A stretch of 64,000 nt of DNA from Phoronis australis (Eukaryota > Animalia > Phoronida): the NCBI GenBank assembly GCA_002633005.1, contig NMRA01000514.1:62001-126000 (forward strand), written 5' to 3'. Numbering within the stretch: position 1 is the first letter of the stretch; every line of letters starts with the position of its first letter. The notes beneath the pieces were generated by a model that made no database searches, was not told the origin of the DNA, and saw only the letters and a list, made by a program, of their open reading frames with translations. Both the position numbers and the translations under genes were made by a program. Below are positions 18,693-48,614 of the stretch, one piece after another.

Positions 18693-18972
18693 AACCACTT
18701 ATGGTTATTGCTCTCCACATATCACTTATTCACTTAACCACTTATGGTTGTGTCTCTCCGCATATTTCTTATTCAGTAAACCACTTATGGTTGTTGCTCT
18801 CCGCATATCACTTATTCACTTAACCACTTATGGTTGTGGCTCTCCGCATATTCCTTATTCAGTAAACCACTTATGGTTGTTGCTCTTCGCATATCACTTA
18901 TTCACTTAACCACTTATGGTTGTGTCTCTCCGCATATTCCTTATTCAGTAAACCACTTATGGTTGTGGCTCT
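18693..18972. repeat. 43-bp minisatellite, about 6.5 copies, alternating A/B variants (86-bp higher-order unit)
   Basis: AACCACTTATGGTT starts at 18693, 18736, 18779, 18822, 18865, 18908 and 18951. Confidence 0.95.
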
Positions 18973-24329: not shown

Positions 24330-24371
24330 TTAGGTTGAGAAGACGGTTTTCTGGGTGTGAGTCGCTTTCTC
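24330..24371 (-). CDS. IF terminal coding exon (EKATHTQKTVFST*)
   Basis: Strong acceptor tttctttctttttag, phase 0; matches the ERATH-type end of invertebrate IF tails. Confidence 0.88.
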   Translation of the reverse strand, partial: EKATHTQKTVFST

Positions 24372-27300
24372 CTAAAAAGAAAGAAACGGAAAGGTTGAAC
24401 AAACAAGGATAACAGAGGACAGTTAACGGTATAAATACACGGGAGTTCATTGGACTGCTATAACATATAATGTAACACAAATTTCTCTACGGAATTTGTT
24501 CAGGAAAGTCTCAACTTTTGTGACCTTCCTTCTACATGTAAGAAGAATATGTTATCGATGCTGCAATCGTCGACTTTTCACGAAAATTTATAGTCTAAAA
24601 ATGACATATTGCACGTTCATTTGTTAAATACATGACAGAGTTGTCTCTTCACAGCGTCAATAGACACTTGCTCGTTCTCCTGTTACGTCATTAGGAAGCT
24701 GTTTCTTTAAGAGCCCTATGCATATTGTCTAAAAATCTCTACAGTTTGCTTAGCGTGTTTCATGAAAGCACGTTAAGGATAAAGGGTACAAGACCTGTTT
24801 ACAACTCGAAGCCTGCTCAGAAGCAGGCTAAAAACCGAAAGTGAAAAGTCCGTACTGCTGGGTATGCGTAGTCAGATATCTGATTTCTAATTAAAGTTAA
24901 GTGACACAAAGGCACAAGACTCTTCGAGAGATATACTCATAAAATCCAAAGAGCAAAGTAAAGTAGACCACAAAGATTCCCGGACATTTTACAAAGAAAA
25001 GCTGAATATTCTGCGATCTCGAGCGAGTACATGTCCATTTAGACCTCAGATAGACCACACTATCACGAAGATCGTTACCAAACTACCATGACGTGCGTGT
25101 GGAGACTACTCATTCAGTCAGTGTTCGGTAATGTTTCACACGCTTGTTCAAATGAGCCACATGTAGTTCCTTCTGCAGTGAGGCGGGCCAACGGGGTGTC
25201 GGAGTGCTTAACGCCCTTATAAAGAACCGCAATCAATGCTAAAAACGTTTTGTGTCTAACCAAGGGCCCGTTTAACGGGGAGCCCATAGGCGTTCGTCTC
25301 GCCAATCTAGCTGTCAGTCAGATAAGCGACTACAGATTTCTGTCCGACTTCGAGTTAGTCATAGACAGATTTTCTGACTTTCAGCCTTAGTCCGATTTCC
25401 GTAGAAAGGCGAATCCACCCATGGACGATTTTTAACCGAAAGGCAAAAATCAATTGACAGTTCGATACAAACATGCCAGGAAAATTTTCTGTTTTAGAAA
25501 ATCGAGAAAGATGACCGGTCACAATTTCTAAGGGGTAAAAGGTTGCAAAATCCAGGGGAAGGAATGGTGTCGGCGGTTTCTATTGGCGCTTTCTGCCTTT
25601 TTTTTGCTCGAGCCTGGAATGAACAATACGTAACCAACCCCATCGAGGAAATAAAGGATCCGCCGCTGGCTTGGTTTAAGTTCTTGTTTCATAGAGCGGA
25701 CCCCGGCATCCCAATGAAAGGAGTACAGTTAGCTAGAGATCTCGTGAACTCGCAAATATCGATACTATAAAACAAATATTGTAACCACTTTTGAATATTC
25801 GTAGCTGTCAAAACGTCTGTCAACCAAACATGAACAAAGGAAGAGTGCAATTTTACAGCAAAGAAGCCTTCGTCTGCTGACATGGAGTTCACGTGCAAGG
25901 TGACATCGTTAGCAATGGCGTAAGCTACACAAAAAAGTTGCCTAGGTCTAAACGGAAACAGGTGAAGTATACAGAACAACAACGACGACGCTATCGCGAA
26001 CCAATAGGAACCTGTCAGGCAGCGCAACAACTGAAAACTTAGGGAAAACAAAAGTACGACGAATCGTAGCAATGAACGACATCGAAAAGACACAAAAAGC
26101 GTGTGCGAGAGAGAGCGACCCATACGTTTGTAATCACATCCCTTGATAAGGAGAAGGACACAAATTGTCCCACTCCAAGGACGTGTTAGAACTTGCCCGG
26201 CTTGATAAATTGCTGTCGGGCAGTAACCCGTAAGAAAGACGACGATTTTTCTCGTCGCCGTCTGGACGGCAACCTGCACTATGATGTCTTTTTCTGTCGC
26301 CATTTTCAACTTTGCTTTGAGCGATATTTCTGGTCCATATGGCGTGAAGAAATTGAGATGGCCCATTTAGTTTTGAGCCCTTGTCCCTGAGAAAAGAGTA
26401 CATGTAAGCTTGGCAATGAGAACCATTGCCAGTCTCACTTGAACACAGATTGTCGACAGCAGTGTGATTAAATGGCTGTCGGAATTCTAGCTTTGCATCA
26501 TTGATTATAGGAATTGGCATTGTGAAAGGTACGTCGGTGCAGCTTGTCAAACATTCACAAATTTTGCATTCAGCGCTAGAATCTTCTTTACGGCACGGAT
26601 ACACAGCGACCCAAGTGTCGCTTGACTTTACATTATCAGCAGAAGATCCAGCAAGGACAGCTGCAGGAGACCGAAGTTTGCTTACGCACAATGTGCACTT
26701 AATTGAATTACTTTGACAACTTTCGGAATTTGGCACACGCATTTGACAACCAATTCCATTTACACAAGTACAACAGTTGCTGCACCGCTCTGACAACACG
26801 TGAGAATATAAGGAATGCGTAGTTTCACTACTCTCGTCATCGCTCCCATAAAGCACGTGAAGGTGGCTCGCGAGATATGGCGAGACATATGCTGCACCGG
26901 AAGCAGCGAAGTGACCTACATCTCCGCTCGAGTTCAGGAGCATGGTGACGATCTGGGCACCCATTCCCCAAGTATCCAGCTCGGTATCCATGTCGAACTT
27001 TGTAGCGTTCTTCTTGTCATTTTCTTTGCCTCCCTTCTTGTAGAACTAGAATCATAAGAGGTCGGAATCGTTAAAAGGATATTAAGCCTGCTTTATAGCC
27101 ATTCAACAAACAAGAACTACGACATGTATCGCTTGAAGTGCCCGTCAAAAATGTTAATTGATGACACTTCGATTGGTTTCAAATTGGTAGTCAAACGAGA
27201 AGTGATTGCTGAGCCCTGGAAAATTGACAGTTCGGTATTGCTAAAGACCATGCTTGTCATATAAAATGACACGCGGTGACAACACAATTTCTCGACCCTG

Positions 27301-30300
27301 ATCCCATAACGTAACAAACTGTTAGGGTTTCCAAGAATTGTCTCCATTCACGACGGAATAATTCTTTTGGCATATTAGGCTTATCGCTTAGGAAGATTCT
27401 GATGGCGAAGCAGTCACGAACAATAAGACTACCTTCACTGAAAAGTCGGACTTTCGTGTATTTTAAACCTTTGAATGGTAGGCCTTAATGCCAACAAATG
27501 TTTAGCAGAGTGACTAGTATGCCTACTGCCTCGACTCCTATTGTTAGTGGGAGACACTACGTACTGAACATAGTGAACCCATTTACTTCCCGAGACTAGT
27601 GAAAGGAAAGTTTTGTCAGTGTCAGAAGTATTCCATACTACCAGACGTCTCACTCGCACAAGTTTTAGAACATTTTCTTCGAAAAATTAAACTTACTCTA
27701 ATCTTGCTTCCGGGAGTCTCCTTCTTGCTCAGGACAATCCCGTTCGGTATCTTGAAGTTCGTTACCTTTCCGTCAATGTTGCGAGAGATAGAGTAGCCGT
27801 CCATTTTGAAATCTTCCTGCAGAAAATAATGGCATCAAAGCGCTCCATTAGGAACGTGTATGTTGTCAAGTGCAAATAACTAACACCTTGTCCACGATAT
27901 CACTAAGTCATTTACCTTCGCCGGGTTTCATGACATAGCCAACCCATTGCATCCCACTGCAAAGACCTAGTATGATGTCTGATGTTCAATCTACACATAG
28001 GCGGATTCAGGGGGAAGGGAGCCGACCTAGTTGGCTGACATTGCGAAATTAGGTCACTCCTGCTATGCGTTGAATCGCGCCTCAGCCCTACTATGGCCAG
28101 AATCTGGTGTCTGCTTTGTCTTCATTAATCCGAGGAGAGGATTCAATCATGATTATTTACGGTATTTTAAAAAAGTTCCAGCTAATATTTTCATTGAACC
28201 TGAAGACTTAAGTACGCACGTATAACAATTGGTGACACACAGTGCCGGACGACGAATTATACACGGACAGCTCTTAGCTAGAATGTCATATTTATGTTGG
28301 CTTAGCGACAAATTGTGAGTGCCATTGCCACGTGTATGAGAGCTTTAGGAATGTACGTACACCACGGCAGTTGCATCATATTTAGAGAAGCCGTAAATCA
28401 AAGGAGAGTTTAACTTGAAAGCCAACTTACCCGACCGCTGTTCTCGATTTCAACGAACTCGCCCAGCTTTCCAGTAGCGCAGATGGACACAGGTCCTTTA
28501 GCTGTTCTGGAGTAGGTGGTCTTAGCTTGCATCTCTCCTTTCATGACTTGTTGCACTTTTTTAGTCGTAGTGGTTTTTGAAGTCATGGTACCCGAACCGC
28601 CGCCGGAAATGGTCATGCCGCCACCACCGCCGCCGGAAATGGACATGCCGCCGCCACCGCCGCCGGCAGACATTGATGTTTCAGACGAAGACGATTCAAC
28701 AATGTGTGGTTCGGATGATTCAGTCATCGATTGATGCGAGTCGATGAAAGAGGAGGAAGAAATACCGGAAGCTACATTAGTTTGTGGTTCCCATGGTTAC
28801 ATCAAGTCAGTTGAAATGAAGTCGTTTAATGAAAGAAAGAGAGAAAAGAACAAGAAAGCAAAATTAATTCAACCGTGAAAGAAGCCATTCTTAAGCAAAG
28901 CTCTTGTAGCTACCATGCAGCAGGTGCACTTGGGTGTTTTAAAAGTGCACAGTTATTGGTGACGTCAGCTGAAAGTACCTACAAGAAATGATTTGTCAAG
29001 CACTCGGTAGTCTCGGAACGAAGGAAATATTACTCACCAAGTAGCGCAGAGTCAATGAAAGGTAAGCGATGGAATAAGAGAAAAATAATGCATTAATGTT
29101 GTGAAACAGGTGCAAGACGAAAATGTCCACGGCTGTGAGATATTGGCATTCCAAGTAAAATCTTAGAAAGCTGATAGAAATCAATTACCACTCACTGTGA
29201 TCGTAAAATATAACATAACTAGGTGCCAAAGAGCTAAATGTTATACTACGTCATTGGACCATTTTCGATGCCCAATACAAGTAAAAGTGTCCCCAACTTG
29301 ACAGAAAAACAGCAGAGCATCTTAATGGGTTGTCCAAATAGCCCTATTGCAGGTAAGTACTGTTAATGAAAGATCTGGATAGATTGTCAGATAGCTACTC
29401 ACCAAAGACAGTGTGTTACCAATGAGAGAGCAGAAAAGAGAACATTTTTCATATAGTATAAATGAAATTCAACATTGGTTACGCATGATAAGAGTTGCAG
29501 TAAAATATGAGGTAAATTAATTATTGACAAAATTCACCAATTAGCCACCAGAAAAAGTTTGTTGCTTGTCGTAACAATTTGGTTTGAACAAAATACTATC
29601 CGCTATACTGAAAACTGATAGCTGGTAAAGTATCCTAACTTAACAACATGAACACGTCAATACATGGATCCGGCGCGATTTGACTGAAAAGTACGTCTCG
29701 TCGCACAGAGCAAAACAAATACTCCCATCTAAGCAGTCGTAGCGAATAAATGCAACGTATTGGCAACTAAATCTAAAATTAAACTCAAACTTTGTAATCC
29801 AAAGATAGCTTGAGGATAGAGAGCTGGCCGAGGTATTAGGTCCACTCGTAGCTACCAAGGGTTAGATTAGTGGAAAACACTCATGCATGAGTTATAGTAG
29901 TGAAGGAATACAACAGATCATGCTGCATACATATATTCTGTAATACATAGACTCCGTTACAGCTTACACCAGGCAATTTAAAACAAAATTAAGAACAATT
30001 AATCGCTATTTAAAACGTATAACATATAGATGACGTTTGAATAAAACCATTTAAACTCAAACTTTAAAGTAACGTTACTTGATCAAGTGTAACTATCCAC
30101 GTGCAGTTTAGTAGTCAAATAATTGGCGAAGTTTATTGTAACTCGCTTAAAGCAGGTGCGAAGCAAGAAAATTACACAGAAGCGTTATCAGACGACTAAA
30201 CACGTCCACACCAAAGTCAGACCGCATAAGATGTAAGGTTGTGTAAAACTACAATAGCATCGGTTTAGCCGAAGTTTCGCTATGCATCTTGGAGTGGTGT

Positions 30301-33300
30301 TTCATGAACTACATACTCGGTTTTTTCTCGGGTTGATTTTGAACTGTCGAATCTAACATTGCGCTAAGCAGGTCAACGTCACCGGGATCGTTGCGGCTCC
30401 GATTTCTGTTGTCGTTGTCTGCAAGCCTAGCGGAGGAACAAGTAGAGCTACTTTAAGCAAAAGGGAACAGAAGTCAAGGCATAGGAATAGCAAGTAAGGG
30501 CCACGGGCCCAAAGCAACGCGTAAAAAATTGGGATTGGTTAGCGGAAGTCACGTAACAATTAAATCTCCATTAGCTTTGGGAAGTCATTTCATGGACAAT
30601 GACATTTTTTGAAAGGGAGAAATTTTGTCAACGGAAACGAAATTTTCCACTTGACACGACGTGTCTTGACAAGTATGCAGTTGTGCGTAAATAAATAAAA
30701 CAAGAGATTGTTAGATTACGTGAGTCCAAAAACCAACCCCAGTCAAACTGAAATAAATGGCAAGGAAACTATACATGCATACACTCTAAGCAGAGGTGGG
30801 ATACTGTTACGAAATGACCACAACAAGCAATCAAGCACGTGACATGTGACAACATGTAATTATCTAGCGACATCTGGTGTACCGTCGTCGGGCTTCTCGC
30901 CACCAGACTGAGCAGCAGAACCAGACTGGCCAGCAGAACCAGACTGAGAACCAGAACCAGACTGGCCAGCAGAACCAGACTGGGAACCAGAACCAGACTG
31001 GCCAGCAGAACCAGAATGGGCAGCAGAAGAGGAGGCAGACTTAGAAGCGTTATCGTTATTGGCCAGTTCCCCTCTGCCACCGTCACGTGACATTCGGGAA
31101 GAACCGCCGGCTGCGTTCCTTTCACTTTCGTTGAGGAGCCTGTAGAGGAATATGCTTCAGGTGAGATACTATACGCTAATGAAAAGCTCAAAGAAGAAAT
31201 ACATGTGAGACAGTGAGAGCAGCATGTCTGTATTTAACTGATGTGACTAACATTTCAGCAAAATCGTCTCATTAACATTCAGATTTGTTCAATAGATGAA
31301 GGAAGATTAAAGCTCGAACTGAATGAGTTGCGGATTAAATTGTAGAATGTATTGTCAACTAAAAAGTAGCAACCCTTGTCTGAAGCTTGTGCACCTTATT
31401 CCGGCAGTAACATTTTACTAGGTTGTCACAGAGTAAAATACAGAAAGCAACACCGTCACTATCCCACGAGGACATCCAGCGCCACCATAGGACCAGATGC
31501 AAGTCATGAGACCGCCTCCAACAGCGAGAGTGCGAGCAACAATGAGCCAGCAGTCACTTACAATCGCCGTCTCCAGCACCGCTGCCGCTCCCGCTGCCGC
31601 TGCCTCCGCCGCCGCCGCCACCACCTCCCATCATGAATGCGAGACTCTCGCCGCCGGCGCCGCCAGCACCACCGGCACCGCCGCCATACATGATGCCGCC
31701 GCTGCCGCCAATTCTGTTACACAATTTAAATAGATTTACTTGACGTGTTCTGATAGAAACAGATCCAAGTCAATCATTTCACAAAAAGCATCGTCTTTAG
31801 CAGCCACTATTCGATCTTCTATGACCCATTGATCATTCAACGACGCGTTTGCCTGAAATCTTCAAACCTTAGCATGCTATGAAAACTTTGCTGCAAGAAA
31901 AAATACTTAATTAGTTAAGCAAATCCATAACACGTGTTAGTAAGGAACGGCAAAATGCAAGGAAATGTTTTAACACACGATGCTCGGATGACAGGACATT
32001 GCGTCTGCGCACATTTAAGGTCTAACTATGTGAATCCTTGTAGCAAATTCCAGGGGTTAGTAGGCAAATGTCTACGGACACTAGGGCCTACTCAAGCACC
32101 AAATTAAGGTCCTTACATTCACCGGATGACGCGTCACCGCCTCCAAGAGTAAGCGAGGCTGATGCAAAGGCCTGGTTGGACGACGAAGACATACTCTGAC
32201 TGTATCCAGACGACATTCCTCCGGAGGAAGACATGCCCCCACCGTATGATGATACACCACCAGAGCCGGACGAAGCCATGAACGCGGCAAGGCCGCCGGC
32301 ACTCTCGCTCATGGAACTCAACCTGCCATAAAACTTATGCGTGTTGTACCATTGCCGCAAGATATAATAACGTAAACAATGTTCGCCTCAGCATGCCTCA
32401 GAAGTGTCCTAACACGAAATGCGTATAGGAGTGCCAGCTCACCCGACTGCAAAACACTGAAACTGAACAAGCTGAAACAGACAAACAATTGCGGCGACAT
32501 CCACTGAAAACGTTTATTGGTACAATTCTGAAAAGCAGCGACAGACGCAGAACAAAACAGCTTTCATTGTCATTGTTGGCGGGTCTGAAAACGAGCAAGG
32601 GCTGCCATGCGCGATCATTCCACGCGAAACGCGGTACACAAGTGCATGCGTTGAGATTCACACGCTGCAACCACGCGATACCTTCACTTGGGAAGTCCTG
32701 CATGGTCATCATAGCCTGTACGTCATCGAAACCCCCGGCACCCCCACCACTAGATGACGAGTAGGTGTAAGAGGTCGATGAAGAAGAACCTCCGCCGAAA
32801 CCACCAGCGCCACCACCGCTACCGCCGCCTCCGCCACCGAACATGGCCGACACTGCAAAGCCCGGATGTAAACCCTCATAGGTACAAGAAGACTGTGCAG
32901 ATCAGTTATAGATTGTGATTTAAAATTGAAATCGTATGCATAAACATGATTTGATGTCTTTACCAACCAGCTTAATTCTGGATGTGATATCAAAGGAATT
33001 GTCCCAACTAAAAAATTAGGGCCTACCAAAACACCTACATGTAGTTATATGAACTGATTTCCGTATCCCATGCAACTACAGTTAAACTGCAGAGTACCTC
33101 AGAAAAGAACAAAAACGCATTCGAATAAGCATGAAATCATTCTTACATCAGCATAGCGAGTGGATCCCGGAACGAAGCTACGATCGGCAAAAAATCCGAT
33201 TTTCCAAAATAAAAGTAACCAAATCTCTTACGTATCCAAGAAGTGTTCTTACCCGCTACTGGATTTCTCAATAAGACGCCTGCATCGATAGTAAAAAAGC

Positions 33301-36300
33301 AAATGAGTTAGCAAAATTGTATACAAGTAAAACACGATGACAATATCAACCATGGGGCAAAGACTGGGGCAAGGGTCAAACTCGACCTACTTGCGCCTTG
33401 TTCTTGTCGGTTCGTCATCCACTCTTCGACCATAGTTGGGTAACCAAGTTTGTTCAACCTAACGATAACAATTGTTATGAATATAGTAAACAATTCTCCC
33501 AAAATCCGGGTGTCTGGAATAGAAAAGCCAACAAAAGCCACAAACAGCGCCATGTTTTAAAACAATTGATACATGACTGCTGTGTTAAGTTGCTTAAGTG
33601 GATTTACGCCTTTTGACTCTACGGGGGCTGAATTTCTGAACTTTGCCAGACGAGGGGCTGATTGTGGCTTTGCAAAGAGCGTTAGACCCGAAAGCTTATA
33701 AAAACTAAACGTCAGAGGGTGCAAACAGATCCAAGTGTTTGAAGAAGACACACTTGTATTCCACTGGAATGAAAGAGCGAGAAGAAATAATTTAATGTCG
33801 CTACAAATTCATCTTTTCAGAATAAACATTTGAAAATATGTACTTCAAGCTTGAGCATGGAAAATGTGAACATGTGTAAATTTAGAACAATTAAAATGCG
33901 CGTTGGCAAAAACGCCAACATCTTTTCAAGCCTTTGTAACGTCAGAGGATTCATCATTCCCCTTGCGCTTATACCAAAAATTTCCCACTTTCTAGAACAT
34001 GTTTCACTACATTTTGAAGAGCGACATGGCATTTTAGTGGCCGACAAAAGTCGTCAAAGCTTACCTGCTCTCCTCTCCTTGCAGCATTAGCCTGTACGCC
34101 GATATCTCCAGTTCCAAGGAGAGCTTGGCGTCGGTAACCCTGTCCAAGTTGGCCATCAGCTGCTCCAGGCCAGCACGCAGCTCGGCAATTTCTTGCTACA
34201 AAAGCAATAAGAGTAAAACTCAAAATCATGCCCAAAGTAAAAACCTTGATAAGATTTGGGCAGCCTGAATTTGAGCATTCAAATGCTTACATTATCAACA
34301 GCATTCCCTAAGGGCAGTACACCCAACGGGGTGTTATCATTCAGTGAAACCACAACTTCCGAAACAGGGAAATTTCAAAGATTCAGCTTACCTCCTTTCT
34401 CGCCATCTCGGCGTCCCAGTCTCGCTGCTTCTGGTCCATTTCGTTCAGCAGATCTTCGTACAGCTTCTTGTACTTAGCAAGCTGAAAGCAGTAACAGGGC
34501 AGCATGAGATAACAAGTAATCCCACTCGGGTAAAAGCTCCCATCGCAATCCATATCTAGCCGCTGTACAGACAAAACTAGGCTAATGCTAACTTGCAGCT
34601 GAGATATGGCTTCTAAAAGCACAAGTAACTGCAAAAGACGAAGTATCTAACGGTATATAACAGAATATGGAAATATCCGGTATTTTTACACATTGACTTC
34701 GCCTGAGCATCTCATTGCCAACTCGCTGTACGGCTGAAAACAATCGTAAATCCGTTACTTACTTCTGCCTCGGCAGCAGCTAGTCTCTCGTTTTGGTCAT
34801 CCAGTCGGTTCTGCAGCGTTCTGTTGATCTCAGTCAAACGAACGACCTCAGTGTCCTTGCGAGCGTTGCCGGTGCTGAACTCCTGCATCTGAAGTAGACA
34901 AAAGATTTCAGTGGTCAAGTTTGCACCTTTTAATAGACAAGATAAAGATCGCTTGTGTGGCGCTTATCAATAACATTATATCCAAAATTCTGCAGCAATT
35001 TAAAAAGTCTTTTTTCCAAAACCTGGCTTGAAAATAGCGATAATCTGGCATATGTATCGGAAATCCAAATAGGTGTTACCACTGGCATTAAAAAGTCGAA
35101 TAACTATACACGCGACGACATTGACACGAGAAGGGAAACAATAAAGTGTACTGCAATCTATGTTCACCATTAAAGTATTAGAGCTCACTAACCTTGACAT
35201 TATAGAATGCCTCGCTCTGACTCCTGACGGTGTCCAACTTGCGGTCGTATTCCTCCTGCAAGTCCCGGATGACCTTGGACAATTCGTCCTTCCAGTAGGA
35301 GCGGTTCTCCTCCGTGGTGTCGCGGTAGGCAAGGGCGGCAAGGTCCTTCAGCTCCTGGTGAAGAATTTAGTGAAAAAATGATAAAAATGTCACTATTAGA
35401 GTGGCCAATCCTTACACAGGTTATTCATGCCTCCTGTCTACTGAACTTGTTCCATTTTATGTCTTCTGTTCCATTTCTCTTGTCACAGTAGACTGGCTCT
35501 ATACTTTCAAACATTCAAATCTCAAAAATCGGCGAGGCAGTAAATTGATGAAATTAATATACATAGTGGCATTTATTAGTTATCACAGGGATACGAATGC
35601 ATCACAGAAGCGTTATAAAATCAAATGCAGTATTGTGTCATACTGTACGTTCCCATCCTTTTGGGCTTATAAGTCACCTGATACAAATTTACGGCAATCC
35701 AGTGCCTTAATTAAAGTCTTCTCAAAAGCTTCGGTATAATTCAGAATTACGTATTGAGGGAAAGATACACTTTTGTTTGTGAACCTGAAAACGGTGCCGT
35801 CCTGGAGTTTTGTAAAGAATTGGTATGCAATCAGCAACTTTCTCCAAAAATACTACTTATGAGAAATGACAAGTCATCAATGGTCTGCAAGTAACGTAGA
35901 AGGCTAGACCAAGAGACCATGAGGCTCCGCTGAGGGATCACTAGCGAAGTTGAACAGAAAATGGGTGAAACGTAGCTGAAAATCAACACGATGCAAACCA
36001 CAAACAGCAGTGTGCTGCAAACGATGAATTGAGTGTGTGTCGTCACGCCTTACGACGGCATTTAGTTTTGCACACAGGCGGTGCAGCCAGACGTACCTGT
36101 TCCATGATTCGCTTCATGAATTCAAACTCTTCCTCCAACGACTGGCATCTGTTCTCGGCATCAACACGAGCAAGAGTCTCGTTGTCAAGGTCCTGCAAAT
36201 AGAATGTATTAACACATTATGGTGGAAAATGGTGAACTAATGCACTGCTTCTTTCGAGAGCTATTTTCAGGTCAAACCAGTAAAATAGTTTTATTTTCGT

Positions 36301-39300
36301 GTCCTCAGATCTCCAGCAGAAGTGACCCCAATTGTGAGGGCTTGCCATACCAAAATAGTACTCAGAACGTCCAAGCCATTCTTAAACTCCCCATGAAACG
36401 GCCAGGTTCGTCCATGGGGTTCTTATTCGGACTGTACAACAATTTGCCGGTTCCCACTAGTTTTTATCACGTTGCTGTCCGACAAAACCCTACTAAAAGT
36501 TCTATCATGTACAATTATTGGGTCAAAATAATTGTTTTAATTATGACAGTAGATATAGATACGTCAGATTACTTCTGCACACTCACACAGCGGGCCTTCA
36601 TCAACTCATTGTTCAGACGTTCGATCTCAGCCTTGTCTCTTGCTCTCTCGTTCTCCAAAGAGTCAATGCGCTTGCGCAGCAGTTCCAGCTCAGTGGTCAT
36701 ATCGCTGATCTGTTGGTCTTTCTGTTTATTGTCCTCGGTTACCTCAGCCAGCTGCTGCTCCAATGACTCGATCCTGAAATAGTTCGTGGAATTTATTTAA
36801 CATCTTTTCTAATTCCTTGGCCTTCACCTTCATTCAGTTGGTATTTACAAGAGACTCGCACTGTCTTTCAGTGATCACAATTGTGTCGGCTGTTCTGTCA
36901 TGTATAAGATGTACCCAGCTTATTATTCACAGGTTGGTTGTCAGTCATGTGATTTCCGAGAAACTATCTATTTAAGTTCGTAACCAATCACAAAAGGCCA
37001 ATGTATAGTTCAATAGCTGTCTCTTGGCGAGAAAAAAAAATGTCCAAAATCATGTGCTCTAAATGAAAATACGCGGCAATTTATCGCGCAATCTCGCGAG
37101 ATAATACTTTTTAACAAGGCATTAGCGATATTGACTTCAACTGTGTTCGGTCAGTAACGCAAGACACTTGCAAGATACCTGTGGCGAGAAATCAGGGTTA
37201 TAGGGTCTAACAAAATAATCATTCAAGCCTCGCAGTCCAATCACTTCAGTGGCGGTCAATTTGCTTGTGTACGTTAAAAAAAGAACCTGGCTCATTCGCG
37301 AAACTGTAGCTTTTCACTTGCAAGATTTTTGGTCTGGCGTAATCTCACCAAAACTTGAAAGAAATTTGCTCCACGGATGTCAGCCCAGGGTGTCGGGCAA
37401 CCTCTCACTTTGTCTGCAGATCTCACGTGATATGACGCGAGGTTGACAATGACTCCAGGGACACTGAATGGACGAGGCATTCTGGGTACAGTTTCATAGA
37501 CGCAAGAATCTCGCTAAGGAAGCTAGTGGTGTGACTGTGCACCGATTGTAACACGTGGCGATATTTCGCGCGAAGTGTTGCGCGTTCTTGCGTTTTCGAG
37601 AGATTATCCCCTCCACGGAACGCACACATGCCCTTGTGACACCGTTCATAAAGCATCAGTGCCAGTTGCGTTATTTATTTTTTTGTCCTTTAGTCTGTTC
37701 ATTTCGGTTGTTTCCATGTTTACATTAGCACACAGGCGTGTTTTAATTGTTTCCTCTGATGCTTGACGTTTGGACACATGTATAAATTCTAACTTACTAA
37801 GTTATAGACTAGGCTAATACCAAAAAGCGCTTGTTATCTGTAAACAACTAAAGGTATTTAACAAAATGACATTTAACATTAAACTGGTGCAAAATAAGAA
37901 CAAATAGGCTGCAGGTAAAATTCACTTTAATTGCGTAAACACCCGTCTGGCGGGGATGTTGCCCAAGAATTTGAAAATAACGTGCTCGTGTTACAGTCTG
38001 GTTGGAATGCCAGAGCTGGACGCCGGAGGTTATGTCAAACGTTGAAAACGCAACACTGAGAGACGAGACGGAAGAAAAATAGGCCTACCATCGAACTAAT
38101 AACGGAACTTGATCACCTAGGTGTAGGCCAGTTTGCTAAATCGGTAAGTTAACTATGAGTTGGAAAGCATTGCCCGACGCCGATCGCCAAATACAGTTTC
38201 GTGTTAAGCAGATGTAAATGGGGGACAGAACAATTAGATTGCGGAATTTGCGGCATCTTCACTCCTGACTCATCTTTTGAACCCGGTACATCCCAGAATA
38301 ATCTCGACTAATTCTCGGAATTTTTATGAAGTAATGTATTGCCACCTAGTGGCGATCGATCGTAACATCGCGCAAATTGAACAAGTTTTCTTGCACTGCA
38401 TAGACTTTAACTAATACATGTAAGATAAGATAATATTATTTGAGCAACAAACACTGGTATACGGAAGGGAACAAATGAATCAAATAGGCGTGGTTGTGAA
38501 GCGTGAAACACACTCATTGACAGGCCAAGTAATGTCTAGAAATGGTGACGTTTAGGTAGCGCACAAACGCAGTAGGCTCATTCGTGGCTATTGTCCTGGT
38601 GTGCGCGGCAGTATTTTACGAACACGTACAAATGTTAAACTTTGTAAGTGAACAATGGTGGATGGCCCGATCCCTTTCAGACAATCATACTTTGCCCAGC
38701 TTGTTGGAAAAGCTACCTTAATGCAGACGTCGCAGTGGTAACGTAAAACAGAAAAGCCGGAGGACGTTGACTGACCGTTCATAATAACCGCATTATGATA
38801 TCAAATTTCTGTCAGGGACACAATAACCTTTTCAAATGAATCATGGTAAAGATGAAATGACCTGTGGGTTCAACCGATATCACCATCAAAACCCACGTAG
38901 CAGAACACATTTCTGGTGGGTCGCATTGTCATGAAGCAGGTTTAGCGAGAATGACATATGAAGTACACTATTCAACACAATTGTACTACTGGAGATCGAT
39001 GAACTGGAAGCGGTATCCTTCTGATTCAGTGTCCAGTAGATCAAATTTCGCAAATGCGTCTAAATAACCTGTTCTGAAGTAAGCGGTAGAGGCATAATTA
39101 AACTAAATTAACACTCATGCTTCAGATTCTATGGATACTGGTGACACAGAGGCTGATTTAAAGAAAATCTGAAACCCCAATCCTTTGAAGAAAAGTTCAT
39201 GCTTGTACCATTTCGGCGAAAGCTTTCGCCAGTGGCGGATTTAGGGGAGGGGCCAAGGGGGCCATGCCTCCCTAAAATTCTCCCAGATTCAATTTGGCAG

Positions 39301-42300
39301 TTCGGGGGTGCGAATGTATGACGGGGAAAAATCCTGGCTAATGTTCTGATCCCCCCTGTAAAATTCTGCATCAGCCCCTGTTCACTGCCAGACTGCCTGT
39401 TCAAAAAATTTTTCTATTCCACAAATTTGTGTCGAAAAAGGCCAAAAAGCAATCAGTGCTGTCTTGTACCCCGACTCCTTTTTAGAGCTGCATTGATTTC
39501 AGCCAAAATTTCAGCCCAAATTTCAGCCAATATTTCAGCTAAGGTATGCTCTTTTTGGTTAATATCTGCACAAAGCCAAGTGAGCTACGATTTACCATGA
39601 GAGTAGTAAAAATTCCACTTAACATTTTCCCCGTCACAGGGGGATCTTTTTTGAAACAGCGAGCAAATAAAAATACCGGACAGCCAGCGACCAGAACCAG
39701 CTTTGCTTTTTAGGTTTAATCTACTACCGACATGTCCGCCATTTCCTAGTTACAATTACTTATTGATTTGGCCTCGTGTATTTTTGAAGACTTATGTGAT
39801 AAAAATCCTTACAATAGACTATGATTATAGGTCAAAATTTCCGAGGTCAGGTCTTCATACCCGATTATGTTGTGGCCTTCTCCTCCCTTTACATTCAAGG
39901 TATTAATTAACAGATTCTTTACAAAAAGTTTCAACAACGAGTCGCGTATCCCTGAGATAAAATGTCAAGTATCAAATTCCTGTTCCAGGTAACACTGCTG
40001 TCTACATATCATGACTATTCTTGTAACCGAGCAGTATTTCGTATTATAAAAGTATTGACTTAACACGGCTGTAAGCCACGTTTTGATATTAAAAACATCA
40101 ACTTTCTTCAGAGGCGTAGTTACTCTTCCAACGTGACGTCCTCGCGTTCTCATCGTTTGTTAGAATTGAAACCGGTTAAGTACAAGGAATTGCCTGGGAT
40201 TCCCCTGACAATCATATTGTCCGTGTGATCGACTCCAACTAACCAGAAATGACAAGCAACTTAACGGCACCGTTGTATTGCAAGAATAGCAACAACTTGT
40301 CAATATTTCGCAGCCTGGGTGTTAGGTTATATTTTATAACTATCCTAAATCAATTTTTACTGTTAGGAGTAATTTTATTGTAATGGAATACCTTGCAGTT
40401 CAGACATTTTAGGTACGCTATATAGATAAGTAACTAATGAAAACGTATCTTTCTTACAGTTATTCAAACGTGATCACAGCGTACCTACTACGCCCACGGA
40501 TGACGATAACCTGTGTTTTGGTATGTACACCGACTTATTTCGAGACCTGGGCCTATCGACTAAAAAACCCCGCTCGCATAAATTTCGGCCGGTTGTTAAT
40601 TCCTGAAAACTGCACAAAGCCGCGTAAGCAAGGGTGAACAATGTTAGAAACGCAATTATATGCCAAGCGATCAGTAAAAATAAGCACAAACCGGGACCAA
40701 TTGTGTATTTGTGCTCATTCATTATTTATTAGCCAATACCGACAGAAAACAAGTTCCCTGGACCAATAGTCAGCACTGAAGTTTCCTAAGTTTGTTGTAT
40801 TACAGTATCGTCACGTAGCAACCTGACAAATGTCTAACAATGAATGTCATTTCAGGAACAGAAACCCGAGCTAATTTGCATTTTCATGTCGCCGTAGAAC
40901 GTACTCTCGAACAAGCGCCACCTATGCTGCAGCGATCTAGTATCAGAATCACTCTGCCGGTTAATCACGAAGCAGCGCCATCTGTGCTCANACCGGGACC
41001 AATTGTGTATTTGTGCTCATTCATTATTTATTAGCCAATACCGACAGAAAACAAGTTCCCTGGACCAATAGTCAGCACTGAAGTTTCTTAAGTTTGTTGT
41101 ATTACAGTATCGTCACGTAGCAACCTGACAAATGTCTAACAATGAATGTCATTTCAGGAACAGAAACCCGAGCTAATTTGCATTTTCATGTCGCCGTAGA
41201 ACGTACTCTCGAACAAGCGCCACCTATGCTGCAGCGATCTAGTATCAGAATCACTCTGCCGGTTAATCACGAAGCAGCGCCATCTGTGCTCAGACGACCT
41301 CAGGTGTGACTGTTGTCAGGTGGGGATATGGGGGTCTGTGACTAGACTCTCAACCTCACGTGACTTAACGAGTAGACAGCCAATTATTAGTTGGCTTTAT
41401 TCGGTCTGAATGATACCAGTGTTTTCAATGCAAACTTTGGAATTTGATACCGTGCGATATTGGTTTAAAGCTACATGTACTACGACTTCTAAAGGAGCGT
41501 ATTGTAAGCGAATGGAAGCTTGTTTTTGGGTTATGTCAATATTGAAGTTTATTAATAACATCGTTCAACAAGGGCAGTGGCGACTTAATATTTTGCTCTA
41601 TCTGCATTGACCTCCTCGGGTCGAATGGCTTGGAGTTAGGATAGCGGTGGTTGACCTCTCACCGCTTCAAGCTCATAAGGGTACTAGCACCTGTCGTCAG
41701 CCGACAAGTGGGAACTCGTAATATTCATATAAAATCGGATTGCCCTTTGTCGATTGCTCAGCAAACAGGGCATGCTGGAGCAATCATTTGTATATGATAA
41801 GTTAGGGTTAATGCTAATTTTGTAAATGTCATTTTAGTAGTTTCATTACACAAAAGTTGACATCCGCGAGGTCACGTGTTATAGCAGTAGTTCGACTTTA
41901 TATTGGTATGAGCGAGTAAATGTTTTTTCGTAGCCGTGGATGTTAGTTGTCTGACATATAACTTCAAAATGGTTGGGGTAACCACGTGACCCAGGCATAG
42001 TTGTCACCAGGTGTTGTTATTAATCAGCAAACTTATCGCATTCAAAATTAAATTGTGTGTTACTACTTTGGTATTGTGAAACAAGCACTCATCACGCTAC
42101 GGTGACCTGTATTTCAGAAAATATACACATATACAAATAATGCACTTTTCATTACGTCGAGGTTACTTCACTTTTTGGTCTAATGGGGAGGAATTTCTAG
42201 ACAGGCACCAGGCGCCAATTCGGTCGCTGTTCTTAAATCATGGACGTATTTTATTCGAAAACTACCTACAAAACGCTTAGCTTGAATAACCGCATTACAT

Positions 42301-45300: not shown

Positions 45301-48300
45301 ACTATTTGACACAATCAGACAACCCAGTACAAGTGGCTAATGGCATAAATCGCAACGTTTTAGGTTCCGTAATTATGTCAAGCAGCGTACTTAGTAACAG
45401 AAAAAAAACACGCTGACGGCGCCTGCATATGGTATAAAGAAGTGGATTTGAAGTTTTTACTTCGAGTAAATTGTCAATGTTTTTCATTTTGACTCTTCAT
45501 TGCAAAATAGTTCGCTCTGCTTTTCTAAAGAAACCAGACATATTTTCGGTTATTTGCAGAAAACACTAGAGCAGATTTCTCCAACGTTGCTTGCGGTGAG
45601 AATCGGTAATTTTATATGTGTGCATGTACACACCAGTCTGCAGGTTCCAGTTATGTACAAAGCTCTCATCGATCAAGAATTGCCTAAAAATAACCGTAAA
45701 CCCGGGTGTAACTCATAATTCGTCGATTAGAAACTCTGAAGAAATAGAGAATCGCGATCAAGCCAAAAACGTTCAGATGGCTCATTTTGAAGTCCACGTG
45801 AGTCGCAAATTACTCAGCGCATCATCACGCTGTGCCTCGCGTGACGAGTCTTCGAGAATACACGGTCCAGCAAACACGACACTTTACTGAAATTTTGGGT
45901 TCCAATTGTGAAACCGTGCAAATTTTACGCAAGTCTTTGTTAAAAAACTTTCTGAACTCTCCAGATTCGTTATCGCGTGAGACACTCGAGTTGGAAACAG
46001 TATACGATGAACGTGTGTAAACGGCTTTAAGGTTATCGTGATAGGTACATTTTAGACAGGTTATTATTGCCGACTGATCGCCACAGGTGCTTATACCTGC
46101 CACGCTAAATTGTCTGTTAGTGGGCTCCGTGAATCGGAAGACGCATTCAGTAGTTGCAATGCATACAATTATCAACGTTTCTCGTCAAAAGCCAAGCGAG
46201 TTTAAACCCATAGGGTAATACCCAGAGTTATTTGACAACGGTCTGTCTGCGGCAACGTCTGCAAGCTTTACTGAAGTGGACCATTTTATGGTGGGGGAAT
46301 CGCGTGACAAGAAAACGAACGTAAAATTGTTCAGCGTCTTAATGGTATTCGAGTGCTGGCCGTCAAATATTATATACTGTATTAGCTATGACGCAGAATC
46401 GCCTGTTTTCGGAAGAATATGAGAACTTCCTAGTGTGAATGGTCGGATGAGTGGCCCAGGTTGAATAGTAAAGCAAAGAATGCCAGTCCTAATCATTTCC
46501 ATAATCCACAATCGGGCAAAGATTATAATCGGTGATCGCTTTTTAAATGAATATTTAAACCCCGCATTCCGTAAACTTTGCAATTAAATGTTGATGTTTA
46601 AAGTTAAATGTGTTCAGTTTAGCAACTGAGTTCTTTCCTTGCATACAGTTGATCGTGCGAAGCTCGGGATGGCCCACCGACTTCCATTGACGGTGGCTCC
46701 CGGAGAATGATGGCCAAAATTTGTTGTGCGAGAATCAAAGCGAAAGCGTTGAATATTTATTAACACAGTACCAGTGATTGTGCAAATTTTGAGCGGAAAT
46801 AAAAAGAAAAACTACCGACCGCGTATTTTTCACCAGGAGCTACAGACGTGATTGGCCTTCATTCCTGAACCATTGTGCGGTGAATCTTTAGACACGACCT
46901 TGTACATGTATTTGAAGCAGCAGATATTTGCTAACTCGTTCAAAGAGGTTTCGCGCTCGAACTGCGCCGGGGTCCCAGTAACGGACTAGTTTAGGTCTAC
47001 CTTGAGCCTTTACACTACGCATAAATCACACAGAGATGACCATCATAATAGGTAACAAGTGTCTAGTTTTCACTAGTGACGTAACTTCGAGACTGGCATT
47101 TATGCGTTCCGAACAAAAACTATTTTGTAAACGGCAATCGTGTTCGTCTAAGTGTTTCTTACTTTTTTATTAATACCGACTGATCGCAGTAAGTACTGGT
47201 CGAGAGACAACTTAGTTGCGCCGGCGGCTTCTGGCGGCAATTTTGAAATTTGTTGGATTCCAGAAATAATTTAACTGACCAACTTACTGACACCGTTGGC
47301 AAAGAAAAAATTTACAATGTAAAACATGTAATACAAAGTTAAGCGATTTTAATATTGAGGCCTCAGCTGAATTCAGTGTAGTTTTAAAGATTTAGAAAAA
47401 TACACACTAGGAGTTACTCGCTACTCCAGGTAACTGAGCCCCAGCCATGCCTCGTTTTCGAAGTGGGCGTGGAGCTGATGTGACGTCAGCAAGCCGGCCG
47501 GCTTTTTACTCTATTTTTGCAGACTGGTTTTTATACAACTTTTCGCCTGATTGAGATATTTTGTAAATTGTCTTTATTTTTGCTGGTATTTTCAGATTTG
47601 TTTCAGAAGTTTTCTATTCAGTCGCACCACTTTTTTCAAATTCTTATGTTGCAGAGAGTAGCAGACGACATATTCGATTTAAAGGTCCTATTTTTAAAAG
47701 ATGGCGTGAGTTCAGTAATCGCGTTCCTCAGTTTCTTTTTACAGTTTTAAGAAAAAGTACAGTAAACGATGACTAACAACAACTTATTTCTACAAACATG
47801 CCTCCCAAATAGAGTTACCTGTATAACATTGGTTCCTCCGCAATCTTGCACTGCTTGCAGGAATTCTATAACAAAGGGCGCTTAGGCGCGAGAACTTTCC
47901 ATTTCCCAACCATCAAACTGGTACCCGTGTGCAGCAGACATTACGTGCAAGTTGAAAACTCCTTCATCAGGGCAAAACAGTGATGCCTATCAGACGGATT
48001 GCAGAATGGACAAATTTACATACTAGCCATTCAAATACGATTACTTACTTGTCATTTGCCTCCTCCAAATTGTCGGTGAGTCTGTCCACTTGAATGCGCA
48101 GTTTCTCGTTGTCTTTCACGCTGTCGTCGTAGAGTTGTTTTTGCTGTTTCAGCTCTGCCTCGTACATGTCCTTGATTTTTTTCGACGGTTCGCCCCACTT
48201 GTTGCGCAGATCTGTCAGCTCGCCGGCAAGCTTCCTGTTCTGGGCCTCGAGGAATCTCACCTTCTCGATGTATCCAGCAAAACGCTCGTTCAGATCTTGC

Positions 48301-48614
48301 ATGTCTTTCTTCTCCGTAGATCGGCTTTGCAGGATTGTATTCACGCTGGACGATGTTACGGCGTTCATTGCCTGTGGTGTGGCCGACGACGAGACGCCGT
48401 ATTCCACCGAGCGCGTGATCATGCCGCCACCGCCACCGCCGCTGAAGCCACCGAAGCCCCCGCCGAAACTCATGCGCCCGCCGCGCGAGCCCAGACTGTA
48501 TCTACCTTTAGCCTGCGACACCGGCCGGGTGATGCGCGAGGACGACGAGGAGTAGGACGTTGTTTTTCCTGGCGACGAATAACTCGTCACTTTAGTAGAA
48601 GACTTTGTGCTCAT
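24330..48614 (-). CDS. Protostome-type cytoplasmic intermediate filament protein (long coil 1b plus lamin-tail domain), about 698-777 aa depending on linker route
   Basis: Rod exons 48614-48049, 36773-36587, 36192-36097, 35354-35193, 34888-34763, 34481-34392, 34195-34065; one alternative linker route; tail exons 28771-28431, 27816-27697, 27045-26920, 24371-24330. Motifs: EKKDMQDLNERFAGYIEKVRFLEAQN, ELKDLAALAYRDTT (cytoplasmic-IF linker region), LSLELEISAYR..GEE, KTTYSRTAKGPVSI, TWGMG, EKATHTQKT. No CaaX on the main terminal exon. Confidence 0.95.
26920..27045 (-). CDS. IF lamin-tail-domain exon
   Basis: ttctag|TTC...GAT|gtaggt, 126 nt, phase 0-0; TWGMGAQIVTMLLNSSGD. Confidence 0.88.
27697..27816 (-). 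CDS. IF lamin-tail-domain exon
   Basis: ctgcag|GAA...AGA|gtaagt, 120 nt, phase 0-0; DGYSISRNIDGK. Confidence 0.88.
28431..28771 (-). CDS. IF first constant tail exon (Ser/Gly-rich linker and start of lamin-tail domain)
   Basis: atgtag|CT...CGG|gtaagt, 341 nt, phase 1-0; three 30-nt GGGGGGMxIS-type repeats, then GEMQAKTTYSRTAKGPVSI. Confidence 0.85.
30317..30426 (-). CDS. IF alternative linker exon E (RLADNDNRNRSRNDPGDVDLLSAMLDSTVQNQPEKKP)
   Basis: cttgttcctccgctag|G...A|gtatgt, 110 nt, phase 2-1, open frame. A weaker phase-1 donor would end the exon at 30383. Confidence 0.6.
30883..31139 (-). CDS. IF alternative linker exon D (SGSAGQ/SGSGSQ repeats)
   Basis: ttcctctacag|G, phase-2 entry, RLLNESERNAAGG... 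Either spliced at the weak G|gtacac (phase 1) or read through to the stop at 30860. Confidence 0.7.
30903..31028 (-). repeat. Coding tandem repeat, 7 x 18 nt
   Basis: ccagactggccagcagaa alternating with ccagactg(a/g)gaaccagaa on the plus strand. Confidence 0.9.
31562..31713 (-). CDS. IF alternative linker exon C (poly-Gly, GSGSGS)
   Basis: taacag|A...T|gtaagt, 152 nt, phase 2-1; RIGGSGGIMYGGGAGGAGGAGGESLAFMMGGGGGGGGGSGSGSGSGAGDGD. Confidence 0.8.
32117..32322 (-). CDS. IF alternative linker exon B (Ser/Gly/Met-rich)
   Basis: tttatggcag|G, phase-2 entry; two tandem phase-1 donors (G|gtgaat ending 32123, T|gtaagg ending 32117); RLSSMSESAGGLAAFMASSGSGG... Confidence 0.8.
32682..32892 (-). CDS. 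IF alternative linker route A, main exon (Gly/Ser-rich)
   Basis: gcacag|TCT gives phase-0 entry (an internal phase-1 acceptor would start it at 32852); donor G|gtatcg, phase 1; SAMFGGGGGGSGGGAGGFGGG. Confidence 0.7.
33147..33177 (-). CDS. IF route A microexon, 31 nt (GFVPGSTRYAD)
   Basis: atcgtag|C...GAT|gtaaga, phase 2-0. Confidence 0.6.
33253..33279 (-). CDS. IF route A microexon, 27 nt (RLIEKSSSG)
   Basis: cttttttactatcgatgcag|G...GG|gtaaga, phase 2-2. Confidence 0.65.
33391..33458 (-). CDS. IF route A small exon, 68 nt (VEQTWLPNYGRRVDDEPTRTRRK)
   Basis: tcgttag|GTT...AA|gtaggt, phase 0-2. Confidence 0.5.
33754..33763 (-). CDS. IF route A microexon, 10 nt (SGIQ)
   Basis: Strong acceptor ttctcgctctttcattccag|TGGAATACAA|gtgtgt, phase 2-0; complements the 68-nt exon (78 nt together). 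Confidence 0.45.
34065..34195 (-). CDS. IF rod exon 7 (end of coil 2)
   Basis: ttgtag|CAA...AG|gtaagc, 131 nt, phase 0-2; DAKLSLELEISAYRLMLQGEES. Confidence 0.93.
34392..34481 (-). CDS. IF rod exon 6
   Basis: tttcag|CTT...GAG|gtaagc, 90 nt, phase 0-0. Confidence 0.9.
34763..34888 (-). CDS. IF rod exon 5
   Basis: cttcag|ATG...GAA|gtaagt, 126 nt, phase 0-0. Confidence 0.9.
35193..35354 (-). CDS. IF rod exon 4 (L12 and start of coil 2)
   Basis: caccag|GAG...AAG|gttagt, 162 nt; ELKDLAALAYRDTTEENRSYWKDELSKVIRDLQEEYD. Confidence 0.93.
36097..36192 (-). CDS. IF rod exon 3
   Basis: ttgcag|GAC...CAG|gtacgt, 96 nt; DLDNETLARVDAENRCQSLEEEFEFMK. Confidence 0.93.
36587..36773 (-). CDS. IF rod exon 2 (long coil 1b)
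   Basis: tttcag|G...TGT|gtgagt, 187 nt, phase 2-0; heptad pattern. Confidence 0.92.
39230..39380. mobile_element. MITE related to the 22858 element (CAG termini)
   Basis: Starts CAGTGGCGGAT, ends ATCAGCCCCTG; flanks TTCGC / TTCAC (4/5 TSD match). Confidence 0.55.
40690..41292. repeat. Near-exact 300-bp tandem duplication around an N (40991); probable assembly overlap
   Basis: accgggaccaattg...tctgtgctca is repeated on both sides of the N with only 1-2 differences. Confidence 0.85.
48049..48614 (-). CDS. IF coding exon 1 (Ser/Gly-rich head, coil 1a, start of coil 1b)
   Basis: gccaagATG context; LNERFAGYIEKVRFLE helix-initiation motif; donor AA|gtaagt, phase 2; followed by an 11.3-kb intron. 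Confidence 0.95.

What the first reader, a model, noticed from the sequence alone, without database searches (positions are those of the whole stretch)
30317..33763. Frame-enforced cassette of five alternative linker routes in an intermediate filament gene
Seen: the last rod exon ends in phase 2 (34065) and the first constant tail exon starts in phase 1 (28771). Joining them directly frameshifts to a stop within about 17 codons. Between them lie four single exons (B 32322-32117, C 31713-31562, D 31139-30883, E 30426-30317) and one multi-exon route (A 33763/33279-32682). Each has an open frame and converts phase 2 to phase 1; joining B and C frameshifts. The routes begin alike (RL, RI, RL, RL, RRL) and four share a small hydrophobic motif (VSAMF, LAAFM, LAFMM, LSAML), suggesting exon duplication. 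Established: alternative tail processing is known for molluscan IF genes and GFAP, and mutually exclusive exon arrays are known from Dscam1 and Mhc. Inference: one gene makes a family of IF isoforms with the same rod and lamin-tail domain but interchangeable low-complexity linkers. I do not know of such an array in an IF gene but cannot check the literature here.
Basis: partly seen in the sequence, partly recalled or inferred. Interest (0 to 1): 0.85.

Follow-up and report, generated by a model that had tools for sequence, protein, structure and literature searches.

The report
Swappable linker exons in filament gene
One cytoskeletal filament gene of a horseshoe worm splices one of four alternative spacer segments (likely five) between the same rod and the same tail, and matching protein variants in limpets, abalones, mussels and worms suggest this is likely a widespread, old way to get many filament proteins from one gene.

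Summary
Real, with corrections. The gene is a phoronid cytoplasmic intermediate filament (IF) gene: exon 1 is 89% identical to Phoronis ijimai IF. Stranded RNA reads show the last rod exon joined to routes A, B, C and E (918 reads) and each route joined to one shared tail exon (1216 reads). No skip or double-route joint is among the 15 listed; 4 weaker joints were hidden. D was not seen spliced here, but it matches the linker of the P. ijimai protein at both ends. Corrections: route A is 33458-33391 plus 32852-32682. The main tail acceptor is 28555; 28771 is minor and was seen only after C. The exons show no mutual similarity beyond composition, so duplication is unproven. New: two tandem branch-motif/pyrimidine-tract/AG-free modules precede the two tail acceptors, a distant-branch-point signature. 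The slot is not unique to this animal: database isoforms swap it in Patella (4 routes), Haliotis and Mytilus (3 each), and oyster, Mya, Owenia and Lineus (2 each). Ten library searches found no paper describing it. Verdict: new variant of known IF tail splicing.

The parts
48049..48614 (-). Exon 1: head and start of rod
   Evidence: Pfam Filament; 89% to P. ijimai IF; boundaries
34392..36773 (-). Five constant rod exons (36773-36587, 36192-36097, 35354-35193, 34888-34763, 34481-34392)
   Evidence: tblastn with P0002; AG/GT ends and open frame; joints 34481-34763 and 34195-34392 in reads
34065..34195 (-). Last rod exon; strong phase-2 donor at 34065
   Evidence: Pfam Filament 271-312/313; donor 11.2 bits; 918 reads to four routes
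33391..33458 (-). Route A exon A1 (68 nt, phase 2 to 1); carries the ancestral post-rod motif
   Evidence: 351 reads from the rod, 245 to A2; profile match p=0.0005
33253..33279 (-). Rare optional 27-nt micro-exon (phase 2 to 2)
   Evidence: 13 reads from the rod, 7 to C; in frame
32682..32852 (-). Route A exon A2 (171 nt, phase 1 to 1), Gly/Ser-rich
   Evidence: 426 reads to 28555; also in an X1 contig
32117..32322 (-). Route B (206 nt), Ser/Gly-rich
   Evidence: 202 reads in, 319 out
31562..31713 (-). Route C (152 nt), 56% Gly; in-frame 6- and 12-nt deletion alleles
   Evidence: 317 reads in; 310 out to 28555 and 47 to 28771; indels at 31596 and 31606
30883..31139 (-). Route D (257 nt) with an 18-nt tandem repeat and a weak donor
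   Evidence: Not among listed joints; matches the P. ijimai linker, score 110 vs shuffle maximum 65; repeat; donor 2.3 bits
30317..30426 (-). Route E (110 nt), Asp/Asn/Arg-rich
   Evidence: 48 reads in, 114 out, in X2 and X3; 0 in X4
30097..30137 (-). Candidate intronic poly(A) site that would give tail-less isoforms
   Evidence: AATAAA at 30137; 6 molecules start at 30097 in X3; weak
28831..28867 (-). Predicted distant branch motif (A28864) and 20-nt pure pyrimidine tract for acceptor 28771
   Evidence: motif only
28746..28780 (-). Predicted second distant branch motif (A28777) and 17-nt pure pyrimidine tract for acceptor 28555
   Evidence: Only such pairing among 104 CTAAY sites on this strand; motif only
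28556..28771 (-). Optional 72-codon Ser/Gly extension, also a 216-nt AG-free zone
   Evidence: 47 reads from C; longest of 3638 inter-AG gaps on the strand; 0 AG vs 11-13 expected
28431..28555 (-). First constant tail exon (main acceptor 28555; further in-phase AGs at 28546, 28537, 28534)
   Evidence: 1169 reads; phases
24330..27816 (-). Remaining lamin-tail-domain exons (27816-27697, 27045-26920, 24371-24330)
   Evidence: 81-92% to P0002, whose tail is Pfam LTD; first joint in reads

Best explanation
This phoronid cytoplasmic IF gene splices one of four linker routes (A, B, C, E; likely also D) between a constant rod and a constant lamin-tail domain, and skipped or double-route transcripts are out of frame and likely removed by nonsense-mediated decay. 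Shown: the junctions, the phases, and different route shares among three RNA runs. Inferred: the slot is flanked by a phase-2 and a phase-1 intron, so any exon gained there must be 2 mod 3 long and cannot be combined with another. The strong rod donor likely picks one weak acceptor first. The intron to the tail is likely removed late, through distant branch points whose long CU-rich tracts would be the regulated element; which branch point is used would set acceptor 28771 or 28555. The isoforms would differ in the disordered spacer that projects from the filament, tuning spacing or partners by cell type or stage. The slot is likely an old lophotrochozoan feature that was refilled separately in each lineage.
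For: Reads: rod to A/B/C/E 351/202/317/48; routes to tail 426/319/357/114; no skip or double-route joint among 15 listed. Shares differ among runs (chi-square p 4e-19 and 2e-16). In-frame subsets: 5 of 5 singles, 0 of 10 pairs, 0 of 10 triples. D is conserved at both ends in P. ijimai. Same-gene isoforms with swapped linkers and a shared tail: Patella vulgata 4, Haliotis rufescens 3; Mytilus 3, oyster 2, Mya 2, Owenia 2, Lineus 2. Spliced Asp vs read-through Gly at the linker end in Patella and Mytilus fits a phase-1 donor (inferred from proteins). Twin branch-motif/pyrimidine/AG-free modules fit the hallmarks in PMC1431707 (passages), including bypass of an AG close to the branch point. Mean depth in 240-nt intron bins between C and the tail is 15-72, against 1-5 in the next constant intron.
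Against: Four joints were hidden and no second lay was obtained, so rare skip, double-route or D joints are not excluded. D shows no depth above its flanks. Only 18-19% of three runs of one study was read, tissue and stage unknown. Differences among runs could be allelic (X4 has no E joint). No protein evidence. Branch points are motif calls only. Intronic depth could be tail-less mRNA with long 3' ends rather than late splicing. The tree left Phoronis unplaced on a long branch (quick search), so orthology across phyla is not shown. Database isoforms are mostly gene models.
Confidence: 0.8

Rival explanations
1. Exclusion is built into splicing (RNA pairing of the Dscam1 docking/selector type, or repressors), and the frame rule is incidental.
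For: No double-route joint is listed even though much unspliced intron RNA is present. Coupling of acceptor 28771 to C alone shows active coordination.
Against: No repeated selector-like inverted repeat stood out among the 25 longest of 58 pairs shown (no shuffle control, no comparative genome). Introns between routes are 359-456 nt and route acceptors have short AG-free zones (17-66 nt), against steric blocking.
Confidence: 0.3
2. The routes arose by tandem duplication of one ancestral linker exon, as in Dscam1 or Mhc arrays.
For: All five routes start Arg-Leu or Arg-Ile; a post-hoc hydrophobic motif is in 4 of 5. In Owenia and Lineus both alternatives carry the ancestral motif (p=0.001 each).
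Against: No pair among A1, A2, B, C, D and E beats composition shuffles at p<0.01. Only A1 matches the ancestral profile; A2, B, C, D and E have p 0.16-1.0. Lengths range from 110 to 257 nt. Arg plus a hydrophobic residue is the family norm (V/I/L in 124 of 187).
Confidence: 0.4
3. Only A (the ancestral linker) matters; the other routes are tolerated splicing noise in a disordered region.
For: Low-complexity linkers with in-frame indel alleles in C; E absent from one run; D not seen.
Against: B and C each carry 13-43% of rod joints in all three runs. D is conserved in a congener. Haliotis alternative linkers are identical between two species.
Confidence: 0.07
4. The exons serve mainly as alternative terminal exons for tail-less (NF60-like) proteins, with lamin-tail forms secondary.
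For: Read-through of B, C, D and E donors stops within 2-10 codons. High intron depth; possible 3' end at 30097 behind AATAAA. Patella has tail-less forms of three of its four linkers.
Against: 1216 reads join routes to the tail against 918 joining the rod to routes. The 3'-end evidence is 6 molecules in one run.
Confidence: 0.1

Closest known systems
Molluscan neurofilament/IF genes with alternative tails (squid NF60/NF70/NF220; Helix non-neuronal IF A/B). Content recalled; only titles seen in reference lists (PMC49625, PMC552181)
   Same: One head and rod, with alternative processing right after the rod end. The homologues returned are named '60 kDa' or '70 kDa neurofilament protein'.
   Different: As recalled, those cases change or drop the tail. 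Here four to five internal linkers rejoin one lamin-tail domain.
RefSeq/GenBank isoform sets: Patella vulgata XP_050415662/673/684/695; Haliotis rufescens XP_046340225-27; Mytilus trossulus XP_063423081-84; Owenia CAH1785440-43; Lineus XP_064650333-34
   Same: Swapped rod-to-tail linker with a shared tail; optional micro-exon after the rod in Mytilus; tail-less read-through forms in Patella.
   Different: Two to four routes rather than five, with unrelated linker sequences. These are automatic annotations; I found no paper that interprets them.
Mutually exclusive exon arrays (Dscam1, Mhc; recalled)
   Same: One-of-n inclusion, same flanking phases, tandem order.
   Different: Variants here are not detectably homologous, differ more than twofold in length, encode disordered spacers, and one route has two exons; no docking element was found.
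Distant-branch-point exons (tropomyosin/actinin type; PMC1431707, passages read)
   Same: Branch motif and pyrimidine tract at the 5' end of a long AG exclusion zone; an AG close to the branch point is bypassed.
   Different: Two modules in tandem on the shared downstream exon, 1.5 kb from the nearest route donor, so no steric exclusion; the second zone is also optional coding sequence.
GFAP tail isoforms (search listing and abstract starts only) and C. elegans IF alternative processing (title only, PMC395137)
   Same: IF diversity from one gene by alternative RNA processing.
   Different: GFAP isoforms replace the end of the tail (recalled); no constant domain follows.

Membership tests
Protostome cytoplasmic IF with lamin tail domain | IF rod (PF00038) | tested here: met
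   Exon 1 E 5e-19; last rod exon E 1e-5; all rod exons map to P0002
Protostome cytoplasmic IF with lamin tail domain | Lamin tail domain (PF00932) | tested here: met
   P0002 LTD E 2e-8; window tail exons 81-92% identical to it
Protostome cytoplasmic IF with lamin tail domain | No CaaX end (not a nuclear lamin) | tested here: met
   All routes end in VFST
Protostome cytoplasmic IF with lamin tail domain | No nuclear localisation signal | tested here: inconclusive
   No run of 4 basic residues in the P0002 tail; window linkers were not scanned
Protostome cytoplasmic IF with lamin tail domain | Long coil 1b (42 extra residues; recalled) | not tested
   Not measured directly
Mutually exclusive exon array (Dscam1/Mhc type) | Exactly one variant per mRNA | tested here: met
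   No skip or double-route joint among 15 listed; 4 weaker joints hidden; short reads only
Mutually exclusive exon array (Dscam1/Mhc type) | Same flanking intron phases | tested here: met
   All five routes are phase 2 to 1
Mutually exclusive exon array (Dscam1/Mhc type) | Homologous variants of similar length | tested here: not met
   0 of 15 pairs at p<0.01; 110-257 nt
Mutually exclusive exon array (Dscam1/Mhc type) | Docking/selector RNA pairing or steric block | tested here: inconclusive
   Nothing evident; introns 359-456 nt; no second genome for covariation
Molluscan NF60/NF70/NF220-type alternative tail processing | Alternative exon directly after the rod end | tested here: met
Molluscan NF60/NF70/NF220-type alternative tail processing | Tail-less or long terminal isoforms | tested here: inconclusive
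   Weak 3'-end signals at 30097 and 33514
Molluscan NF60/NF70/NF220-type alternative tail processing | Neuronal expression | not testable with these tools
   No tissue labels on the runs
Molluscan NF60/NF70/NF220-type alternative tail processing | Orthology to the mollusc gene | tested here: inconclusive
   Mollusc rows form one clade (SH-aLRT 97); Phoronis is unplaced
Distant-branch-point exon | AG exclusion zone of 100 nt or more | tested here: met
   218 nt at 28555 and 120 nt at 28771, against 25-85 nt at six constant acceptors
Distant-branch-point exon | Branch motif and pyrimidine tract at the 5' end of the zone | tested here: met
   A28864 + 20 nt and A28777 + 17 nt; two of only three pure tracts of 15 nt or more on the strand
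Distant-branch-point exon | Lariat mapped at the predicted A | not testable with these tools
   Needs lariat RT-PCR or sequencing

The most novel reading that the evidence does not exclude
Lophotrochozoans share an ancient plug-in slot between the IF rod and the lamin-tail domain. Its phase 2/phase 1 introns make any new exon exclusive automatically, so phoronids, molluscs, annelids and nemerteans each built a cell-type family of filament proteins from one gene instead of by gene duplication. In the phoronid, a twin distant-branch-point gate on the shared tail exon sets the order of splicing and couples spacer length to route choice.
Probability: 0.45. Interest if true: 0.78.

Novelty: new variant of a known kind. 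Interest (0 to 1): 0.62.

Why it matters
Vertebrates diversify IFs mainly through many genes with different low-complexity heads and tails (established knowledge). This locus shows the same outcome from one gene, and the pattern recurs in database isoforms from four phyla. It makes a concrete test possible: isoforms identical except for the spacer, to ask what IF low-complexity segments do to assembly, spacing and mechanics. It also offers an exclusive array of non-homologous exons, a clean case for asking whether frame plus decay is enough for exclusivity. A practical point: single cDNAs, such as the P. ijimai entry, represent only one route, which can mislead tail comparisons.

Tried and rejected
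No genome is held for the window, so there was no paralogue count and no comparative covariation. A narrower second read lay was not obtained, so D joints and rare out-of-frame joints stay open. No other phoronid isoform proteins were found: 13 hits of 239 short candidates, all 43% identical or less; 83 hits with only P0002 close. The metagenome contig scan confirmed 0 of 65 pattern matches. Rejected: 33763 as a route into the tail (stop after 17 codons); 33177-33147 as a bridge to A2 (31 nt, wrong phase; one search had off-by-one errors in this exon and in exon 1, corrected, and its subset count is unaffected). Steric exclusion was rejected. Hiding of the AG at 28772 by RNA structure is not supported in any distinguishing way, since both AGs are partly paired in the fold. 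The Fisher test used an assumed upper count and is not relied on. The careful tree did not finish; the quick tree of 42 chosen rows is used. The 261-codon read-through frame had 0 hits among 1.84 billion representatives and no Pfam hit; the Atlas gave no answer. Literature: ten searches found no description of this array; one search concerned branch points only. Three older primary papers were not held, and most subscription journals are outside the library, so prior description is not excluded. Earlier scan notes: nothing.
Full report
What the gene is. The minus strand holds an IF gene of 11 constant exons from 48614 to 24330. Exon 1 is 89% identical to the cytoplasmic IF protein of Phoronis ijimai (P0002, CAB38181.1); the next hits are at most 58% identical. 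P0002 maps on every constant exon and has Pfam Filament and LTD domains. All isoforms end without a CaaX box. I read it as a phoronid cytoplasmic IF gene. No genome was available.

The sequence claim. B, C, D and E are as described: AG/GT ends, open, 2 mod 3 long. The direct join stops after 17 codons at 28771 or 11 at 28555. Of all subsets of five routes, 5 of 5 singles, 0 of 10 pairs, 0 of 10 triples and 5 of 5 quadruples keep the frame. Each route gives a full open protein of 626-675 aa. Sequence alone was only suggestive: 12 open phase-2-to-1 candidates against 2-8 for other phase pairs.

RNA. Three stranded raw RNA runs of one study (18-19% of each read) and one contig set were laid on 27700-34900. 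Rod-to-route reads in X2/X3/X4: A 59/162/130, B 52/42/108, C 108/98/111, E 30/18/0. Route-to-28555 reads: A 107/170/149, B 101/79/139, C 76/111/123, E 55/59/0. C to 28771: 40/7/0. Route A is 33458-33391 joined to 32852-32682 (51/113/81). The 27-nt exon 33279-33253 is a rare in-frame add-on before C. No skip, double-route or D joint is among the 15 listed. Four more were hidden as less supported than those shown, the weakest of which had 1/3/3 reads, so such joints are probably under 1% (inference). A second, narrower lay was not obtained. Route shares differ among runs (p 4e-19 and 2e-16); tissue, stage or genotype could each explain this.

Exon D. It shows no depth above its flanks and has a weak donor. 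However, the P. ijimai linker aligns to D from the first residue to the last (score 110, shuffle maximum 65 of 1000), while the other routes score at chance. That protein enters the tail six residues later, which fits the in-phase AG at 28537. D is therefore likely a real route used in a tissue or stage not sampled.

Origin. None of 15 pairs among A1, A2, B, C, D and E beats composition shuffles at p<0.01; the best are D-E 0.012 and A2-E 0.024. A profile of 72 distinct post-rod 11-mers from homologues matches A1 (p=0.0005) and none of the others, so A is the ancestral route. Duplication is plausible but not shown here; it is evident in Owenia and Lineus, where both alternatives keep the motif.

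Not unique. Among fetched homologues, isoforms of one gene swap exactly this segment and share the tail: Patella vulgata 4 routes, Haliotis rufescens 3; Mytilus 3, one of 560-740 aa, plus an optional 5-residue micro-exon; oyster 2; Mya 2; Owenia 2; Lineus 2. Patella also has tail-less read-through forms of three linkers. Spliced Asp versus read-through Gly at linker ends fits a phase-1 donor as in the window (inferred from proteins). These come from capped searches, not a census, and most are gene models. A quick tree of 42 chosen rows groups the mollusc genes (SH-aLRT 97) but leaves Phoronis on an unplaced long branch, so shared ancestry of the slot is likely, not shown.

Splicing anatomy. 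The main acceptor 28555 has no pyrimidine tract and no branch-like motif within 100 nt. Upstream lies a 216-nt AG-free run, the longest of 3638 gaps on this strand, with 0 AG against 11-13 expected (0 of 20000 in each of two controls); a 118-nt run precedes it. Each run begins with a branch-like motif and a pure pyrimidine tract (A28864 + 20 nt; A28777 + 17 nt). These are two of only three tracts of 15 nt or more on the strand, and the second is the only such pairing among 104 CTAAY sites. The AG of acceptor 28771 lies 4 nt past A28777. PMC1431707 (passages) describes this layout for distant branch points and says an AG within 12-15 nt can be bypassed. So the first module would give 28771 (72 extra codons) and the second 28555. 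This is a prediction from motifs. Intron bins between C and the tail have mean depth 15-72 against 1-5 in the next constant intron, as expected if this intron is removed late. Tail-less mRNAs ending near 30097 are an alternative or added cause.

How it likely works. The strong rod donor (11.2 bits) chooses among weak acceptors; the chosen exon's donor (2-8 bits) then joins the tail through a distant branch point. Wrong combinations would be out of frame and decay. Steric blocking is unlikely (introns 359-456 nt), and no docking element was evident. Junctions and phases are shown; order of splicing, decay, branch points and function are inferred.

Novelty. Alternative processing after the rod is recalled for squid and Helix IF genes; I saw only their titles, and the papers were not held. 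PMC4448529 (passages) says only that some cytoplasmic IF genes have splice variants. PMC10125929 (passages) covers alternative C-termini of lamins, not this slot. Passages of PMC3065449, PMC3892160, PMC2120253 and PMC7337489 added nothing on it. Ten searches found no description of a multi-way linker array, within a library that lacks most subscription journals; no supplements were read. Verdict: real, RNA-supported, a new variant of a known kind, with the largest route count among the sets I saw if D is counted. Interest 0.62.

Noticed in passing
window 26919-26137, minus strand: Reading past the donor at 26920 stays open for 261 codons (Cys-rich in part); shuffles reached at most 219 in 20000. 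No homologue and no Pfam hit. Possibly an alternative long C-terminus; outside the stretch laid with reads.
   Followed up: partly
window 33763-33514, minus strand: A strong acceptor opens 17 codons and then stops; 7 molecules start at 33514 in X2 and an X1 contig covers 33536-33705. Possible short terminal exon for a tail-less isoform.
   Followed up: partly
window 30351-30591: Run X4 has no E joints but raised depth here (104 against 57 and 74 in the neighbouring bins). An allele or another acceptor; unexplained.
   Followed up: no
window 28771-28532: Five successive AGs (28771, 28555, 28546, 28537, 28534) are all in the same phase; the sixth is not.
   Followed up: partly
window 7104-16665, plus strand: Exons of an OATP/SLCO transporter gene (Pfam PF03137). 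One exon is present twice, in an 889-nt 96% duplicate (7982-8865, 9120-10005) beside the N at 9119; likely two haplotypes joined in assembly.
   Followed up: partly
window 40684-41295: A 310-nt 98.7% tandem duplicate around the N at 40991; likely an assembly artefact in intron 1.
   Followed up: no
Owenia proteins P0054 and P0129, residues about 339-384: A second swapped segment inside the rod (16 differences), suggesting another exclusive exon pair. The window shows one copy of the matching exon.
   Followed up: no
Mytilus protein P0026: A gene model reads from one alternative linker through about 27 residues into the canonical linker, implying adjacent exons about 80 nt apart (inference).
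   Followed up: no
window 18679-18973: Short tandem repeat of about 85 nt, about 95% alike.
   Followed up: no
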